From the human T2T-CHM13v2.0 reference genome, Homo sapiens: 64,000 nucleotides of DNA. The position numbers and the translations under genes are program-made. The stretch lies in NCBI RefSeq assembly GCF_009914755.1, contig NC_060930.1; one strand, given 5' to 3'. Shown here in pieces: positions 1,765-14,407 of the stretch. Position 1 is the stretch's first letter; each line of letters starts with the position of its first letter. The notes beneath the pieces are model-generated. The model saw nothing but the letters and a program-made list of their open reading frames with translations, did not search any database and had not been told where the DNA came from.

Positions 1765-2696
1765 AAAAAAATACCTAGGAATACATCTAACCAAGAAGGT
1801 GAAAGACCTCTACAAGGAGAGCTACAAAACATTGGTGAAAGAAATCATAGATGATACAGACAAATGGGAAAACATTCTATGCTCATGGACTGGAAGAATC
1901 AATGTCATCAAAATGTCCATGCTGTCCAAAGCAATCCACAGATTCAAGACAATTCCCATCAAATTACCAATATCATTCCTCACAGAATTAGAAAATAGTA
2001 TTCTAAAATTCATATACAACTAAAAAAAAAAAAAAAAAAAAAAAGCCTGGCTAGCCAAAGCTATACTAAGCAAAAAGAACAAAGCCAGAGGCATCACGTT
2101 ACCCAACTTCAAACTATAAGGCTACAGTAATCAAAATAGCATGGTACTGGTACAAAAACAGACACATGGACCAATGGAACAGAATAGAGAACCCAGAAAT
2201 AAAGCCATAACCCTACAGCCTTCTGATCTTTGGCAAAGTTGACAAAAATCAGCAATGGGGAAAGGACTCCCTATTCAATAAATAGTGCCGGAATAGCTGG
2301 CTAGCCATATGCAGAAGATTGAAACTAGATCCCTACCTTTCACCATATACAAAAATAAACTCAAGGTAGATTAAAGATTTAAATGTAAGACCTCAACCTA
2401 TAAGAATCCTAGAATAAAACCTTTGAAATACTCTACTACTGGACATGGGCCTTGGCAAATAATTTATGACTAAGTCCTCAAAAGCAAATACAACAAAAAC
2501 AAAAATTGACAATAGGGACCTAATTAAACTAAAAACTAATAGTAAAATAAACTATCAATACGGTAAACAGACAACCTACAGAATGAGAGAAAACATTTGC
2601 AAACTATGCATCCAACAAAAGACTTATATTCAGAATCTATAAGCAACTTAAACACATCAACAAGAAAAAAGCAAACAACCCCATTAAGAAGTAGGC
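1765..2696 (+). mobile_element. L1 (L1PA16/17-like) ORF2 3' region, left half, split by the SVA
   Basis: ORF 1799-2023 KDLYKESYKTLVKEIIDDTDKWENILCSWTGRINVIKM is typical L1 ORF2p; sequence resumes after 5077. Confidence 0.92.
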
Positions 2697-2827
2697 GAAT
2701 CGCTTCAACCTGGGAGGCAGAGGTTGCAGTGAGCCGAGATTGCACCACTGCACTCCACCCAGACAACAGAGCAAGACTCCGTCTCAAAAAATAAAATAAA
2801 ATAAAAGGAAAAGAAAAAAGAAATTTC
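2697..2827 (+). mobile_element. 5'-transduced Alu 3' fragment (AluS-like) with A-rich tail, inside the SVA insertion
   Basis: gaatcgcttcaacctgggaggcagaggttgcagtgagccgagat...gactccgtctc followed by an A-rich tail; begins immediately after the left TSD. Confidence 0.92.
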
Positions 2828-3193
2828 AGGCAGAGGAGGTCGCGGCGCCGGAGGCCCCAGAAGGGTCGAAGGCGCCGCGGGCTGGGGTCGGTGGCTTAGG
2901 GAGCCCGTCCGGCCATGGTGGCCGCGGCTGGTGGTTGGCGCGGCTGCGCTGCGGCCCGGGGCAGTGCGGAGCCGGGACAGTCGCGGCGCTGACGCCCGCG
3001 GGCCCCAGCTGCAGATATGAAGCGGAGCCGCTGCCGCGACCGACCGCAGCCGCCGCCGCCCGACCGCCGGGAGGATGGAGTTCAGCGGGCAGCGGAGCTG
3101 TCTCAGTCTTTGCCGCCGCGCCGGCGAGCGCCGCCCGGGAGGCAGCGGCTGGAGGAGCGGACGGGCCCCGCGGGGCCCGAGGGCAAGGAGCAG
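2828..3193 (+). other. MAST2: Captured MAST2 exon 1 (5'UTR plus first 59 codons); CpG island
   Basis: 3017-3193 translates MKRSRCRDRPQPPPPDRREDGVQRAAELSQSLPPRRRAPPGRQRLEERTGPAGPEGKEQ, which I recognise as the MAST2 N-terminus. It ends at exon-end GAGCAG, joined directly to SVA sequence. Confidence 0.93.
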
Positions 3194-3340
3194 CCGCCTG
3201 CCTTGGCCTCCCAAAGTGCCGAGATTGCAGCCTCTGCCCGGCTGCCACCCCGTCTGGGAAGTGAGGAGTGTCTCTGCCTGGCCGCCCATCGTCTGGGATG
3301 TGAGGAGCCCCTCTGCCTGGCTGCCCAGTCTGGAAAGTGA
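3017..3340 (+). CDS. Potential chimeric MAST2(1-59)-SVA peptide, 107 aa (expression unproven)
   Basis: Open frame from the MAST2 ATG through the splice junction into SVA Alu-like/VNTR sequence. Confidence 0.25.
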   Translation: MKRSRCRDRPQPPPPDRREDGVQRAAELSQSLPPRRRAPPGRQRLEERTGPAGPEGKEQPPALASQSAEIAASARLPPRLGSEECLCLAAHRLGCEEPLCLAAQSGK

Positions 3341-4535
3341 GGAGCGTCTCCGCCCGGCCGCCATCCCATCTAGGAAGTGAGGAGCGCCTCTTCCCAGCCG
3401 CCATCACATCTAGGAAGTGAGGAGCGTCTCTGCCCGGCCGCCCATCGTCTGAGATGTGGGGAGCGCCTCTGCCCCGCCGCCCCATCTGGGATGTGAGGAG
3501 CGCCTCTGCCCGGCCGAGACCCCGTCTGGGAGGTGAGGAGCGTCTCTGCCCGGCCGCCCCGTCTGAGAAGTGAGGAGACCCTCTGCCTGGCAACCACCCC
3601 GTCTGAGAAGTGAGGAGCCCCTCCGCCCGGCAGCTGCCCCGTCTGAGAAGTGAGGAGCCTCTCCGCCCGGCAGCCACCCCATCTGGGAAGTGAGGAGCGT
3701 CTCCGCCCGGCAGCCACCCCGTCCGGGAGGGAGGTGGGGGGGGGGTCAGCCCCCCACCTGGCCAGCCGCCCCATCCGGGAGGGAGGTGGGGGGTCAGCCC
3801 CCCCGCCCGGCCAGCCATGCCGTCCGGGAGGGAGGTGGGGGGGTCAGCCCCCCGCCCGGCCAGCCGCCCCGTCCGGGAGGTGAGGGGCGCCTCTGCCCGG
3901 CCGCCCCTACTGGGAAGTGAGGAGCCCCTCAGCCCGGCCAGCCACCCCGTCCGGGAGGGAGATGGGGGGGTCAGCCCCCCCACCCGGCCAGCCGCCCCGT
4001 CCGGGAGGGAGGTAGGGGGGTCAGCCCCCCGCCTGGCCAGCCGCCCCGTCCGGGAGGGAGGTGGGGGGGTCAGCCCTCCGCCCGGCCAGCCGCCCCGTCT
4101 GGGAGGTGAGGGGCGCCTCTGCCCAGCCGCCCCTACTGGGAAGTGAGGAGCCCCTCTGCCCGGCCAGCCGCCCCATCCGGGAGGGAGGTGAGGGGGTCAG
4201 CCCCCCGCCCAGCCAGCCGCCCTGTCCGGGAGGGAGGTGGGGGGGTCAGCCCTCCGCCCGGCCAGCCGCCCCGTCTGGGAGGTGAGGGGCGCCTCTGCCC
4301 GGCCGCCCCTACTGGGAAGTGAGGAGCCCCTCTGCCCGGCCAGCCGCCCCGTCCGGGAAGGAGGTGCGGGGGTCGGACCCCCGCCCGGCCAGCCGCCCCG
4401 TCCGGGAGGGAGGTGGGGGGATTCGGCCCCCCTGCCCGGCCAGCCGCCCCGTCCGGGAGGTGAGGGGCGCCTCTGCCCGGCCGCCCCTACTGGGAAGTGA
4501 GGAGCCCCTCTGCCCGGCCACCACCCCGTCTGGGA
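3240..4535 (+). repeat. SVA VNTR (GC-rich ~35-50 bp units)
   Basis: Repeated gcctctgcccggccgccc..tctgggaagtgaggagc and ccgtccgggagggaggtgggggggtcagccccc units. Confidence 0.97.
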
Positions 4536-5045
4536 GGTGTGCCCAACAGCTCATTGAGAACGGGCCAGGATGACAATGGCGGCTTTGTGGAATAGAAAGG
4601 CGGGAAAGGTGGGGAAAAGATTGAGAAATCGGATGGTTGCCGTGTCTGTGTAGAAAGAAGTAGACATGGGAGACTTTTCATTTTGTTCTGCACTAAGAAA
4701 AATTCCTCTGCCTTGGGATCCTGTTGATCTGTGACCTTACCCCCAACCCTGTGCTCTCTGAAACATGTGCTGTGTCCACTCAGGGTTAAATGGATTAAGG
4801 GCGGTGCAAGATGTGCTTTGTTAAACAGATGCTTGAAGGCAGCATGCTCGTTAAGAGTCATCACCAATCCCTAATCTCAAGTAATCAGGGACACAAACAC
4901 TTCGGAAGGCCGCAGGGTCCTCTGCCTAGGAAAACCAGAGACCTTTGTTCACTTGTTTATCTGCTGACCTTCCCTCCACTATTGTCCCATGACCCTGCCA
5001 AATCCCCCTCTGTGAGAAACACCCAAGAATTATCAATAAAAAAAT
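4536..5045 (+). mobile_element. SVA SINE-R (HERV-K env/LTR-derived)
   Basis: ctcattgagaacgggccaggatgacaatggc...gaaacacccaagaattatcaataaa. Confidence 0.96.
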
Positions 5046-5070
5046 AAATTAAAAAAAAAAAAAAAAAAAA

Positions 5071-5915
5071 AGTAGGCAAAGGACATGAACAGACACTTCT
5101 CACTCAAACGAAAACATACATGTGGCCAAGAAAAAAACTGCTCAACATCACTTATCATCAAAGAAATGCAAATTGAAAGCACAGTGAGATATCATTTCAT
5201 ACCAGCCAGAATGGCTATTATTAAAAAATCAAAAAATAACAGATGCTTGCAAAGTTAAGGACAAAAGGGAATGCTTATACACTGCTTGTAGGAATGTAAA
5301 TTCCACAGCCACTGTGGAAAACAGTTTGGAGATTTCTCAAAGAACTAATAATAGAATTACCATTTGACCCATCAATCTCATTACTTGGTGTCTATCCATA
5401 GGAAAAATCATTCTACCAAAAAGACACCTGTACTTGCATGTTTACTGCAGCGGTATTTACAATAACAAAGACATGGAATAACCCAGGTGCCCATCAATGG
5501 TGGATTAAAAAAAAATGTGATACCTATACACCATGGAATACTATGCAGCCATAAAAAGATTGAAATCACATCCTCTGCAGCAACACAGATTGCAGCTAGA
5601 GGCCATTATCTTAAGTGAATTAACGCAGAAACAGAAAACCAAATACCATGTGTTCTCGTTTTTAAGTGGGAGCTAAACCTTGGGTACATATGAACATAAT
5701 GCTGGGAACACTGGGGACTCCAAAAGTGGGGAGGGAGTGAGGAGAGCAAGGCTTGAAAAATGATCTGTTGGGTACTATGCTCACTATCTGGGTGACAGGT
5801 TCAATAGAGGACCAAACCTTAGCATCACGCAATATATCCATGTAACAAACCTGCACACATACTCCCTGAATCTAAAATAAAATATTTTTAAAAAACCAAA
5901 AAATTAAAAAAAAAT
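5071..5915 (+). mobile_element. L1PA16/17-like 3' end, right half
   Basis: ggcaaaggacatgaacagacacttctc...gggtactatgctcactatctgggtgac...acaaacctgcac..ctgaatctaaaataaaa. Confidence 0.92.
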
Positions 5916-6044
5916 CAGTAGAACAACAGAGTACAAAAATAGACCCAAATACACACAAATGCTTAAAATTTGCAAAATTTTAGCAGGGAGTATTTGAGAT
6001 GATGAAACAGCAATGATGATGATAATAATGATGATCATCAGAAC

Positions 6045-11540: not shown

Positions 11541-14407
11541 ATGAAAAGCCCCTAGTCTTGAGTCTTCCTTCCTTCTTTAATCATGAACGATCCTTTTAAT
11601 CTGCACACGTTCTGATGAATTCACATCACCTAATGATGCCATGCTTGTCTCAGCCCAACTGCAGCCATCTTGAGCCTTATCTGGCAGAAATTAAGGCTTA
11701 ACTGCTAATATTCACACCAGCTCCTCCTTCTAGGCAATCTGAACTCTGCCTCTTCCAAGATGGGTGCCCATTTGACATGGCAATTGTCTTTAGGTTCATA
11801 TAAGACTCAGGGGATGGGATTGGTGGGGATAGTCCCTGCCTTGCAATTGATTGGAGCCCATACTGAAGTTTGGGGCAGCACAGATGGTAGCAGTGTGGGT
11901 GAGGGCTGCTCTTTTGACTTTAGAAAGACAAAGGAGACTACACAGTAAGGACTTCTGGAGCAGAGTCCCAACCCAAGAGTCCAAGGCCTGATGCCTCAGT
12001 CTCAGCCTCCTCAGCCTAGTGCTGACTTCAGGCAGCAGAAGAGGAGACACCATTAGCCTCTGCTGCCAAGGATTGTCTTTGAAGAATCCCAGATAAGCTG
12101 GCAGCCTCCAGATTCTCTCCCCAGGAAGGTGTGAGGAATTCAAGTCTTGCTTGAAGACGCTTCAGCTACTGTGGTTAAAGTATGCGATGCCTGCTGGCTG
12201 TTCTTTACCTACAAGAGTGTGTGTTTGCTGCACTGTGGAAAAACCAAGGCCGAAGTCTGTTCTAAGTAGAGTTGCTCTTGAGATTTCTGCCCCTCCTACT
12301 GGTTGCCTCTTAATCCAAATTTGATGTAACATTCCATCATCCACTTGGTCTGCTGATGTGGTAGTATTAATTGCTCAAATATCATTTCATGTGGGCAGGA
12401 AAGGCCACAGGTTAGAGATGGGATGCAAGCAAGTGGTCCCCCTGCATGGTTGGCTATTATTAAAGGGGCCTTGTCACTAAGGGGTTGTTTTATATCTCCA
12501 AAGGTCAGTAGCAATGTGGCTGAACTCTCCTTCTGGAAATCCTCCCATCTCTAACTCTTACTCCTGCAGGTGGGTATAATTCTGGAAATTTTATAACTTC
12601 TCTTTATAAGGAAGTCACAGGGTAAGAGCAGAGTTGGAAAGAGATGATGATATAATAAAGGAACTACAAAAGAAGTTCTCTCAAACTTGTATGTCAAAAG
12701 AACTTCCCTCGTCTTGTATTGTTTATTTTCTATAACTAAGATAATAAAAGGTAATAAAGAATCAGAGGCACAGGATTTCAAGCAGTATTTTATTTTTTTT
12801 CTAATCTCCTTGCAGAATTGACTAAATCATTTTAGAATATTTTTGCTTAAAGTTTCCAAAACTCTTTTGTAATTTTTCTCTCATTTGTGTTTTGCTTTAT
12901 TATTTGCTTTATTATTCTTTCATTCTGTGCTGTAATTGTTACAAGGTCCATTAATCCTGGCCTCATGCTTTATTAGGTAGAACAACAGCCTCGCAGATGA
13001 TTGCCAATAGTTAAGTAAACTTTCTGTGAAGTTCAAGGCTCTACATGTATAAAACTGAATTCCTGAAACAAGTGTCCTCTATGATCCCTCAGTGCAAATC
13101 GTGAGGTCATGATTGCCCTCTCCTCCAAAATGAGAAAAGTGGCCAGAACCGATATTAGAAACTTCATGTTTTGTGTTGACTGCTACTGATTTCAGAATCT
13201 TAATTTTGCTGTCATTTTTGAAGATTACCACAATTTTATTAAATAAGCAAGCTTTAAAAATTACATATGTTAGTTTCACCTTAATCATCCAATTTTTTAT
13301 TGAAAATCAAAATAGAAAAAGATTCTAAAGATAAAAACAACAAATACTTAAATGCACTGTCAGCTCTGTGGTAATGCACTTTTTGACAACACCCACAAAC
13401 AGGTCTGTAAGCTACAATAATTCACTAAATTGTTTGCTGCTTTACAATCGCTGGCAGGAGAGGAGAGGAAAGTGCCATAGGGCCGAAATGAAGCAAATTG
13501 AAAGCTATATAAATAAAAAGCATAAAGCATTGTAAATTCATTGTAATTGGAGTGGTTTTGAGAGGAATAAAATATGCCACCCATCTGCTTTAAAGGAAGG
13601 CAATTCAAACATCCCATTCATTAAATAAAATAATAAAAACAAATTTTAACTTCAAGATAGAGTTAAGAGAGTCGAAGAGGGAGGAGAAATAGACATGCAA
13701 GGAGACCACACACAGTCACATAGGGGAGATAAAGAGAGAGGCCCCATGGAGGAAGAGACACACAGCCATTAACACAGAAAGGAGAAAAGCAGGGCAGATT
13801 TTCACAGAGAAGGACCTTCATCTGTGATCTGTGGTCTTTGAATTTTTGATCCTTGAAACCCATGAAGTTAGTGCATGCTTTCCACAGAAGCAGCAGAGAG
13901 CCTTGTCACCTGGGGCTCCTGGACTGTGGGCTGAACTTTAAGTCAAGAACCAGATGGGATTCATGGGCCAGCCCTCCCAATTTCTTGTTTGTTTGACCAG
14001 ATGAATAAAGTCTATCTGCTTGCACCAATTTCCACGAGAAAGAAGGCTCACATACTCCGCTCATTCCCTTGTTTCTAAAATGTCAAATGTAAAGCTGATG
14101 TTAATATTTTTCTTTGAAAAAAAAAAAAAACACAAAAATGAATGCTATTTACTCTAAGAACCAGTATGGTTTTTAAAGGAGGAAATGAAGGAAGAAGGAT
14201 GTTTACTGGTTTTATATGTATCTTTTCTTAAAGAATTTCATTGAGAACATTAAGCCCTGAGAAAAATATGTCAGAGAGAAAAAGAGCAGAAAAAATGAGA
14301 GAAAAAGAAGCAAGCCACAAAAGCAATAGCCACCTTACACGACCACACACCTACAAGCTAGGGAAAGCAGGGAGATGCCGGAGAAAGATCAGTGGACCCA
14401 CCAGTGA

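What the first reader, a model, noticed from the sequence alone, without database searches (positions are those of the whole stretch)
2689..5077. Three-part mobile cassette: Alu + MAST2 exon 1 + SVA under a single TSD
Seen: one TSD (AAGTAGGC; 11 bp with one mismatch) brackets a truncated Alu, about 365 bp of CpG-rich exon and an SVA lacking its CCCTCT head. The host L1 reads continuously once the insert is removed (ccattaagaagtaggc|aaaggacatgaac). Known: SVA_F1 arose when MAST2 exon 1 was spliced into an SVA. It is human-specific, and one subgroup carries a 5'-transduced Alu. Inference: this copy descends from such a source element, is recent (CpGs intact, clean poly(A)) and may be polymorphic or still mobilisable. 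It is a known class but the most active-looking system here.
Basis: partly seen in the sequence, partly recalled or inferred. Interest (0 to 1): 0.8.

Follow-up and report, generated by a model that had tools for sequence, protein, structure and literature searches.

The report
SVA_F1 retrotransposon with transduced Alu
This is one young copy of a well-described human jumping element (an SVA that long ago captured the first exon of the MAST2 gene and later a neighbouring Alu), pasted as a single piece into an old L1 repeat, so it is a correct but ordinary observation.

Summary
Window 2697-5069 is one L1-mediated insertion flanked by a target-site duplication: AAGTAGGC exact, 11 bp with one mismatch.

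From 5' to 3' it contains:
- a 5'-truncated Alu with its tail and linker (2698-2829);
- 364 bp matching MAST2 exon 1 at 99% (2830-3193), ending exactly where the gene on chr1 has its GT donor;
- a 36-bp Alu-like remnant that starts where a canonical SVA has an AG acceptor;
- a 1.31-kb VNTR, the SINE-R, AATAAA and a 19-A tail.

Six other copies in this genome carry the identical Alu/MAST2 junction. Each ends at a different point at its 5' end, so the Alu is a transduced part of the element and not a separate insertion.

The full-length version sits on chr10, the published source element H10_1. That copy is itself an insertion, and its 523-bp 5' part comes from 9p13.3. This origin is already in print (Vogt 2014).

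Our copy keeps the ancestral G at 2974 and has no chr10 3' transduction. It has one private substitution in about 1,075 non-VNTR bases. I found no offspring of it in this genome.

It belongs to the described SVA_F1 / CH10_SVA_F class. Polymorphism and current activity were not testable here. Interest is low.

The parts
2686..2696 (+). Left target-site duplication inside an old L1 ORF2 fragment. The exact core AAGTAGGC is 2689-2696; the 11-bp form AAGAAGTAGGC is preceded by TT.
   Evidence: both flanks map onto the same 11 bases of uninterrupted L1 paralogues.
2697..2697 (+). A single G at the 5' junction that matches neither the target L1 nor the source Alu, which has A here. It is either an untemplated or cap-derived base, or a point change.
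   Evidence: column 2697 is G in this copy and A in the chr10, chr5 and chr3 copies.
2698..2829 (+). 5' transduction. It comprises the 3' part of an Alu (body to 2785), the A-rich tail (2786-2806) and a 23-nt linker, ggaaaagaaaaaagaaatttcag (2807-2829). All of it is native sequence of the 9p13.3 locus, carried by the chr10 element H10_1.
   Evidence: 100% identical in 5 of the 6 siblings and 99% in chr19. At chr9:33.47 Mb the sequence continues into its native flank.
2830..3193 (+). MAST2 exon 1, from near the transcription start to the exon's last base, including the ATG at 3017.
   Evidence: 99% to the chr1 MAST2 locus, which continues with a GT donor. ORF 3017-3340.
3194..3229 (+). Remnant of the SVA Alu-like region, starting at the cryptic splice acceptor.
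   Evidence: the canonical SVA at chr18:7.26 Mb reads ...cctcccag|CCGCCTGCC at this point.
3230..4539 (+). SVA VNTR, 1,310 bp with units of about 37-49 bp. It is among the shortest of the copies compared and has a private loss of one unit of about 49 bp near window 3808.
   Evidence: TRF; pairwise VNTR alignments.
4540..5034 (+). SINE-R module. It differs from other SVA_F1 copies by one private substitution, 4902 G>T.
5035..5069 (+). Polyadenylation signals (AATAAA at 5035-5040 and 5043-5048) and a 19-A tail (5051-5069). There is no 3' transduction.
5067..5077 (+). Right target-site duplication. The exact core AAGTAGGC is 5070-5077; the first bases merge with the poly(A).

Best explanation
Window 2697-5069 (T2T chr6:134,852,697-134,855,069, + strand, antisense within a TARID intron) is one retrotransposed copy of the human SVA_F1 subfamily. 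It belongs to the subgroup that carries the 9p13.3 Alu as a 5' transduction, known as the H10_1 group or CH10_SVA_F.

**History, and what rests on what**
1. A MAST2 transcript spliced from the exon 1 donor into a cryptic acceptor in the Alu-like region of an SVA_F. Both boundaries are shown here. That it happened only once comes from the literature.
2. Such an element sat at 9p13.3, directly downstream of an Alu. It was transcribed from upstream and landed on chr10 with a 523-bp 5' transduction. Shown here, and already in print.
3. An RNA of this lineage that included the Alu was reverse-transcribed by the L1 machinery at a TTCTT/AA-like nick in an old L1. This produced the 8-11 bp TSD, the poly(A) tail and a 5' end inside the Alu. 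The hallmarks are shown; the mechanism is inferred from the established TPRT model.

**Source copy, unresolved.** It was either an early or variant allele of H10_1 still carrying G at 2974, or the 9p13.3 progenitor or another early sibling.

**Status of this copy.** It is structurally complete apart from the 5' truncation. I found no sign in this genome that it has produced offspring.
For: - **One event.** The TSD brackets the whole unit, and the host L1 is continuous without it.
- **Alu is part of the element.** 7 loci including this one carry the same 101-bp Alu-tail/linker/MAST2 junction, 6 at 100% and chr19 at 99%. Their 5' ends fall at seven different points of the same Alu or its flank.
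- **MAST2 identity and splice.** 99% to the chr1 locus, which continues with GT. A canonical SVA has AG immediately before the junction base.
- **Lineage variants.** 2865G and 2928C are shared by 12 of the 26 SVA_F1 copies that cover these sites. They are absent from the MAST2 gene and from the other 14 copies.
- **chr10 copy is itself an insertion.** It has a TSD, AAGAATGGACTTT, and its first 523 bp match chr9:33.47 Mb at 99.6%. PMC4229983, Fig. 2 legend (passage), describes H10_1 the same way.
- **Youth.** No private change in the 534-bp 5' block and one in 541 bp of SINE-R. All 54 CpGs of the exon are retained.
- **Class is described.** PMC12593883, PMC3287187 and PMC10681720 (passages).
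Against: Nothing contradicts the single-insertion reading. The limits are these.

- The right TSD copy lacks the G of AAGAAG. The TSD is therefore either 8 bp, with a less canonical nick site, or 11 bp with one mismatch.
- The G at 2697 is unexplained.
- This copy lacks the chr10 3' Alu transduction and keeps the ancestral G at 2974. All 9 other typed lineage members outside its small subgroup, H10_1 included, have A there. Descent from the present chr10 allele is therefore not supported.
- Human specificity and population frequency were not tested.
- The genome search scores only the best candidates: 40 of 80, 18 of 18. Copy counts are therefore lower bounds.
Confidence: 0.95

Rival explanations
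1. The copy is an offspring of the chr10 element H10_1 itself. It was made when that locus, or an allele of it, still had G at 2974, using the SVA's own polyadenylation signal.
For: - The literature treats Alu-5'TD SVA_F1 copies as chr10-derived. It reports 15 of 65 non-reference members with only the 5' transduction (PMC12593883, passage).
- 4 of 8 typed 2974A offspring also lack the 3' transduction, so its absence is not diagnostic.
- 0 of 3 against 4 of 8 gives a one-sided hypergeometric p of about 0.21 (my own arithmetic).
Against: - The chr10 allele in this genome has 2974A, 2911C, 4803A and 4914G. This copy carries none of them.
- The three 2974G copies all have short VNTRs (1,183-1,413 bp), against 1,764-2,725 bp in the 2974A copies.
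Confidence: 0.5
2. The copy descends from the 9p13.3 progenitor, which is absent from this genome, or from another early sibling. It would then be a sister lineage of H10_1 and not its offspring.
For: - It has the ancestral state at every site that distinguishes H10_1 and its descendants.
- It has no chr10 3' flank.
- Its short VNTR architecture is closest to chr9:124.68, which is also 2974G and has no 3' TD.
- The 9p13.3 site is empty in this genome, so a lost or polymorphic progenitor must have existed.
Against: - The only difference seen inside the Alu between the 9p13.3 and chr10 versions of the transduced segment lies upstream of this copy's 5' end, so it cannot be typed here.
- 2974 is a CpG site, and a single marker is thin evidence.
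Confidence: 0.4
3. Two independent events: an Alu fragment was already at this site and an SVA_F1 later inserted next to it. Alternatively, the block arrived by segmental duplication.
For: None found. Alu-rich DNA makes adjacency plausible a priori.
Against: - The Alu, its tail and the 23-nt linker are identical in siblings on six other chromosomes with unrelated flanks.
- The single TSD encloses Alu plus SVA, and intact L1 paralogues have nothing between the two flanks.
- The flanks outside the TSD match no sibling locus.
Confidence: 0.01

Closest known systems
SVA_F1 (MAST2-SVA; Damert 2009, Hancks 2009 and Bantysh & Buzdin 2009, as cited in PMC12593883)
   Same: MAST2 exon 1 replaces the CCCTCT hexamer and most of the Alu-like region at the same splice junction. 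The VNTR, SINE-R and poly(A) are present, and CpGs are intact.
   Different: Nothing structural. The VNTR, at 1.31 kb, is at the short end of the copies compared here.
H10_1 source element on 10q24.2 and its transduction group (CH10_SVA_F in xTea; PMC3287187, PMC4229983, PMC10681720)
   Same: It carries the same 9p13.3-derived Alu, tail and linker in front of MAST2. It also shares the lineage variants 2865G and 2928C.
   Different: - It is 5'-truncated inside the Alu.
- It has no 3' AluSp transduction.
- It has the ancestral 2974G and lacks the chr10-allele variants 2911C, 4803A and 4914G.
- Its VNTR is about half as long: 1,310 bp against about 2,675 bp in this genome's chr10 copy.
Canonical SVA_F
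   Same: The sequence is identical downstream of the junction, from the Alu-like remnant onward. Mobilisation is L1-dependent, with TSD and poly(A).
   Different: It lacks the hexamer repeat and about 90% of the Alu-like region, and has an exon and an Alu in their place.
5' transduction by non-LTR retrotransposons (upstream-initiated transcripts)
   Same: Upstream flank of a source locus is carried inside the TSD of the offspring.
   Different: Here the transduced flank is itself a repeat (Alu). It has been passed through at least two rounds: 9p13.3 to an intermediate, then to chr6.

Membership tests
SVA_F1 | MAST2 exon 1 sequence at the 5' side, ending at the exon's donor boundary | tested here: met
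   2830-3193 is 99% identical to chr1:45,680,907-45,681,270. That locus continues with gtagg.
SVA_F1 | Junction into the SVA Alu-like region at the cryptic acceptor, shared by all members | tested here: met
   The junction GAGCAG|CCGCCTGCC is identical in all 7 sibling loci displayed and in 2 further F1 copies. A canonical SVA has ...cccag before the same base.
SVA_F1 | No (CCCTCT)n hexamer array | tested here: met
   No period-6 array in 2000-6000, and none visible in the sequence.
SVA_F1 | VNTR, SINE-R, AATAAA and poly(A) of SVA_F type | tested here: met
   TRF array at 3230-4539. The SINE-R is 98.7-99.8% identical to the 14 other SVA_F1 copies compared. AATAAA and 19 A are present.
SVA_F1 | Human-specific insertion (absent from apes) | not testable with these tools
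   No ape genome is held. Only indirect support: one private substitution in about 1,075 bp.
H10_1 / CH10_SVA_F transduction group | 5' transduction of the 9p13.3 Alu with its linker directly upstream of MAST2 | tested here: met
   The 101-bp junction probe is 100% identical to the chr10 copy and 4 others, and 99% to chr19. The segment continues into native flank at chr9:33.47 Mb.
H10_1 / CH10_SVA_F transduction group | 3' transduction of the chr10 flank (AluSp); optional in published descriptions | tested here: not met
   The poly(A) is followed directly by the TSD. The literature counts 5'-only members in the group (PMC12593883, passage).
H10_1 / CH10_SVA_F transduction group | Descent from the chr10 locus itself | tested here: inconclusive
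   This copy has 2974G against A in chr10 and 8 others, and lacks chr10's 2911C, 4803A and 4914G. This fits either an earlier chr10 allele or the 9p13.3 progenitor.
L1-mediated (TPRT) insertion | Target-site duplication, poly(A) tail, T-rich nick site, variable 5' end | tested here: met
   The TSD is 8 bp exact, or 11 bp with one mismatch. With the 11-bp TSD the bottom strand reads TTCTT/AA. The tail has 19 A. The 5' end lies inside the transduced Alu.

The most novel reading that the evidence does not exclude
The chr6 copy, together with chr19:13.83 Mb and chr9:124.68 Mb, may be a surviving pre-H10_1 branch. All three have 2974G, short VNTRs and no chr10 3' flank. They would have been launched from the now-absent 9p13.3 progenitor. 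If so, part of what is catalogued as 'chromosome 10-derived' SVA_F1 is a sister lineage of the chr10 master element and not its offspring, and the Alu-bearing form was already mobile before it reached chr10.
Probability: 0.35. Interest if true: 0.3.

Novelty: already known. Interest (0 to 1): 0.15.

Why it matters
SVA_F1 elements with Alu transductions are reported as the most active SVA lineage in living humans, and they cause disease insertions. A correctly annotated, nearly unmutated copy in a TARID intron is a candidate presence/absence variant, and it lies near TCF21 regulatory DNA. The class, its mechanism and the 9p13.3-to-chr10 history are all published, so this copy adds one catalogue entry. 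It also gives a small hint about the branching order of the lineage.

Tried and rejected
- **Offspring search.** The 30-mer around the private 4902T occurs at 9 places in the genome. The 8 others are only 92.4-96.5% identical over the SINE-R. They are old, unrelated SVAs and not offspring.
- **Separating chr10 from 9p13.3 origin by the transduced segment.** The only difference seen inside the Alu lies upstream of this copy's 5' end, so it is uninformative here.
- **Separating them by 3' transduction frequency.** 0 of 3 against 4 of 8 is not significant.
- **VNTR alignments.** They show that this copy has the short architecture. Repeat arrays align ambiguously, so I did not use VNTR mismatches for dating.
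- **Primary papers.** Damert 2009 and Hancks 2009 are not held, so I could not check whether this chr6 copy is in their lists of 84 SVA_F1 or 13 H10_1 offspring.
- **Polymorphism.** The non-reference SVA table of PMC12593883 has no chr6 entry starting 13364-13368. My GRCh38 coordinate, about chr6:133.66 Mb, is an estimate from recalled gene positions, so this is weak evidence that the copy is in the reference.
- **Paper search for TARID with SVA.** It gave 4 papers, none about this element judging by titles and abstract openings.
Full report
**Anatomy (TRF)**

The left flank is an old L1 ORF2 fragment ending ...cccattAAGAAGTAGGC at 2696. The insert then runs as follows:
- a single unmatched G (2697);
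- the last ~88 bases of an Alu (2698-2785);
- its A-rich tail (2786-2806);
- a 23-nt linker, ggaaaagaaaaaagaaatttcag (2807-2829);
- 364 bp of CpG-rich sequence (2830-3193);
- 36 bp of SVA Alu-like sequence (3194-3229);
- a 1,310-bp VNTR (3230-4539);
- the SINE-R (4540-5034);
- two AATAAA signals and 19 A (to 5069).

AAGTAGGC follows at 5070-5077, and then the L1 resumes. No CCCTCT array is present.

**Is the TSD real?**

I aligned the two flanks separately to 11 uninterrupted paralogues of the host L1, which are 82-84% identical (fetched). In 6 of the 11, the last base of the left flank and the start of the right flank map onto the same 11 subject bases. In L036, for example, the left flank ends at 1722 and the right flank starts at 1712. 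In the remaining 5 the right-flank alignment begins too far inside to judge. The host L1 therefore loses nothing and gains only the insert plus one duplicated stretch.

The exact duplicate is 8 bp. The 11-bp form has one mismatch (G against A) where the TSD merges with the poly(A). With the 11-bp form, the bottom-strand nick site reads TTCTT/AA. This is close to the L1 endonuclease preference (established knowledge, not tested here).

**MAST2 and the splice**

A genome search with 2828-3193 returned 40 scored matches out of 80 candidates. One is chr1:45,680,907-45,681,270. That locus is preceded by GC-rich, promoter-like sequence and followed by gtagggcgg, which makes it the genuine MAST2 exon 1 with its donor. 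Our copy differs from it at 2 of 364 positions and keeps all 54 CpGs.

Every SVA_F1 copy displayed continues after GAGCAG with CCGCCTGCCTTGGCC. In a canonical SVA at chr18:7.26 Mb the same bases are preceded by ...acctccacctcccag, a pyrimidine tract followed by AG. Both splice boundaries are therefore visible in genomic DNA. This matches the published origin of SVA_F1 (PMC12593883, passages).

**The Alu is part of the element**

A 101-bp probe across the Alu tail, linker and MAST2 start found 7 loci including ours, 6 at 100% and chr19 at 99%. They lie on chr16, chr10, chr7, chr6, chr5, chr3 and chr19 (18 of 18 candidates scored). Their flanks are unrelated, and each copy starts at a different point of the same Alu:
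- chr7 within ...ttgcaccactgc;
- chr19 at acctggg;
- chr16 at cttcaacc;
- ours at aatcgcttc;
- chr3 at cccagctactc;
- chr5 near the start of the Alu;
- chr10 with the whole Alu plus about 190 bp of unique upstream sequence.

This is the pattern of 5' truncation, or variable start, of one RNA species. It rules out an independent Alu insertion.

**Where the Alu came from**

The chr10 copy is the published source element H10_1 on 10q24.2 (PMC3287187 and PMC4229983, passages). In this genome it is itself bracketed by a TSD, AAGAATGGACTTT. Its first 523 bp match chr9:33.47 Mb at 99.6%. At that chr9 site the linker ...aaatttcag is followed directly by another Alu, with no SVA.

The transduced Alu is therefore native to 9p13.3, and a progenitor SVA_F1 must once have sat there. 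I worked this out before finding that the Fig. [quoted passage not shown] It is confirmation, not discovery. PMC10681720 names the class CH10_SVA_F (passages).

**Position of this copy in the lineage**

- **Lineage markers.** 26 SVA_F1 copies cover 2865/2928. Of these, 12 have the G/C pair, including all 7 Alu-bearing copies. The other 14, and the MAST2 gene, have C/G.
- **Site 2974.** Within the 12, position 2974 is G in three copies: ours, chr19:13.83 and chr9:124.68. G is also the state in the gene and in all the other F1 copies. The other nine have A.
- **Sub-branches of the A group.**
  - chr10 and chr16 add 2911C, 4803A and 4914G.
  - Six copies add 2910T, and three of those add 3069A.
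  - chr14:28.90 carries none of these added variants.
- **3' transduction.** The chr10 3' flank is transduced in 4 of the 8 A-type offspring and in 0 of the 3 G-type copies. This is not significant: hypergeometric p is about 0.21 (my own arithmetic).
- **VNTR length.** The G-type copies have the shortest VNTRs, at 1,183-1,413 bp, against 1,764-2,725 bp in the A-type copies.
- **Within the G group.** chr19:13.83 and chr9:124.68 share three further SINE-R changes that ours lacks.

Our copy therefore carries the unmodified early form of the Alu-bearing lineage. It comes either from an early or variant H10_1 allele, or from the 9p13.3 progenitor or an early sibling. The data here do not decide between these.

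**Age**

Our copy has no private change in the 534-bp 5' block. It has one, 4902 G>T, in 541 bp of SINE-R, plus a private loss of one VNTR unit. At 0.5-1.0 x 10^-9 substitutions per site per year, the point estimate is about 1-2 Myr. The Poisson interval runs from about 0.02 to 10 Myr. This fits a human-specific insertion but is too coarse to tell a fixed copy from a polymorphic one.

**Activity**

The 30-mer carrying 4902T occurs at 9 places in the genome. The 8 others are only 92-96.5% identical over the SINE-R, so no offspring of this copy is detectable in this genome. The literature reports that an H10_1 construct without the 3' Alu is mobilised about 12-fold above pseudogene background, and that the 3' Alu adds about 25-fold (PMC3287187, passages). 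Our copy lacks that 3' Alu.

**Context**

According to the hub's gene table, the insert lies antisense in an intron of the lncRNA TARID and overlaps no listed RefSeq functional element. A paper search for TARID with SVA gave nothing relevant.

**Verdict**

The element is a member of a well-described class. The only mildly new point is its basal haplotype.

Noticed in passing
L016 / L033 (G000 chr9:33,473,4xx-33,473,921): The 9p13.3 donor site of the 5' transduction is empty in this genome. The linker ...aaatttcag is followed directly by another Alu. The progenitor SVA_F1 is therefore absent, lost or polymorphic.
   Followed up: partly
L028 (G000 chr10:100.72 Mb, H10_1): The VNTR of the chr10 source element is about 2,675 bp in this genome. 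PMC4229983 quotes 2,093 bp for the hg19 copy. This points to a VNTR length difference between haplotypes at the source.
   Followed up: no
L027 (G000 chr16:85.89 Mb): This copy shares three variants otherwise seen only in the chr10 allele (2911C, 4803A, 4914G). Its interrupted poly(A) and 3' flank are identical to chr10's. It looks like a very recent direct offspring of the chr10 locus.
   Followed up: partly
L066, L067 (G000 chr15:61.28 Mb, chr1:214.11 Mb): In two SVA_F1 copies the MAST2 part is only 91-93% identical to ours (21-24 differences in about 300 bp), while all the other copies are 97-100%. The cause was not examined; heavy CpG decay, conversion or another origin are possibilities.
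   Followed up: no
window 3017-3340 (+): The MAST2 start codon opens a 107-codon frame: 59 residues from MAST2 exon 1, then 48 residues read from SVA Alu-like and VNTR sequence. There is no evidence that it is translated.
   Followed up: no
L049 (G000 chr17:45.03 Mb): This non-CH10 SVA_F1 copy (2865C, 2928G) also has Alu-like sequence just upstream of its MAST2 start, only about 92% identical to ours. It is possibly a different Alu transduction or an insertion beside an Alu.
   Followed up: no
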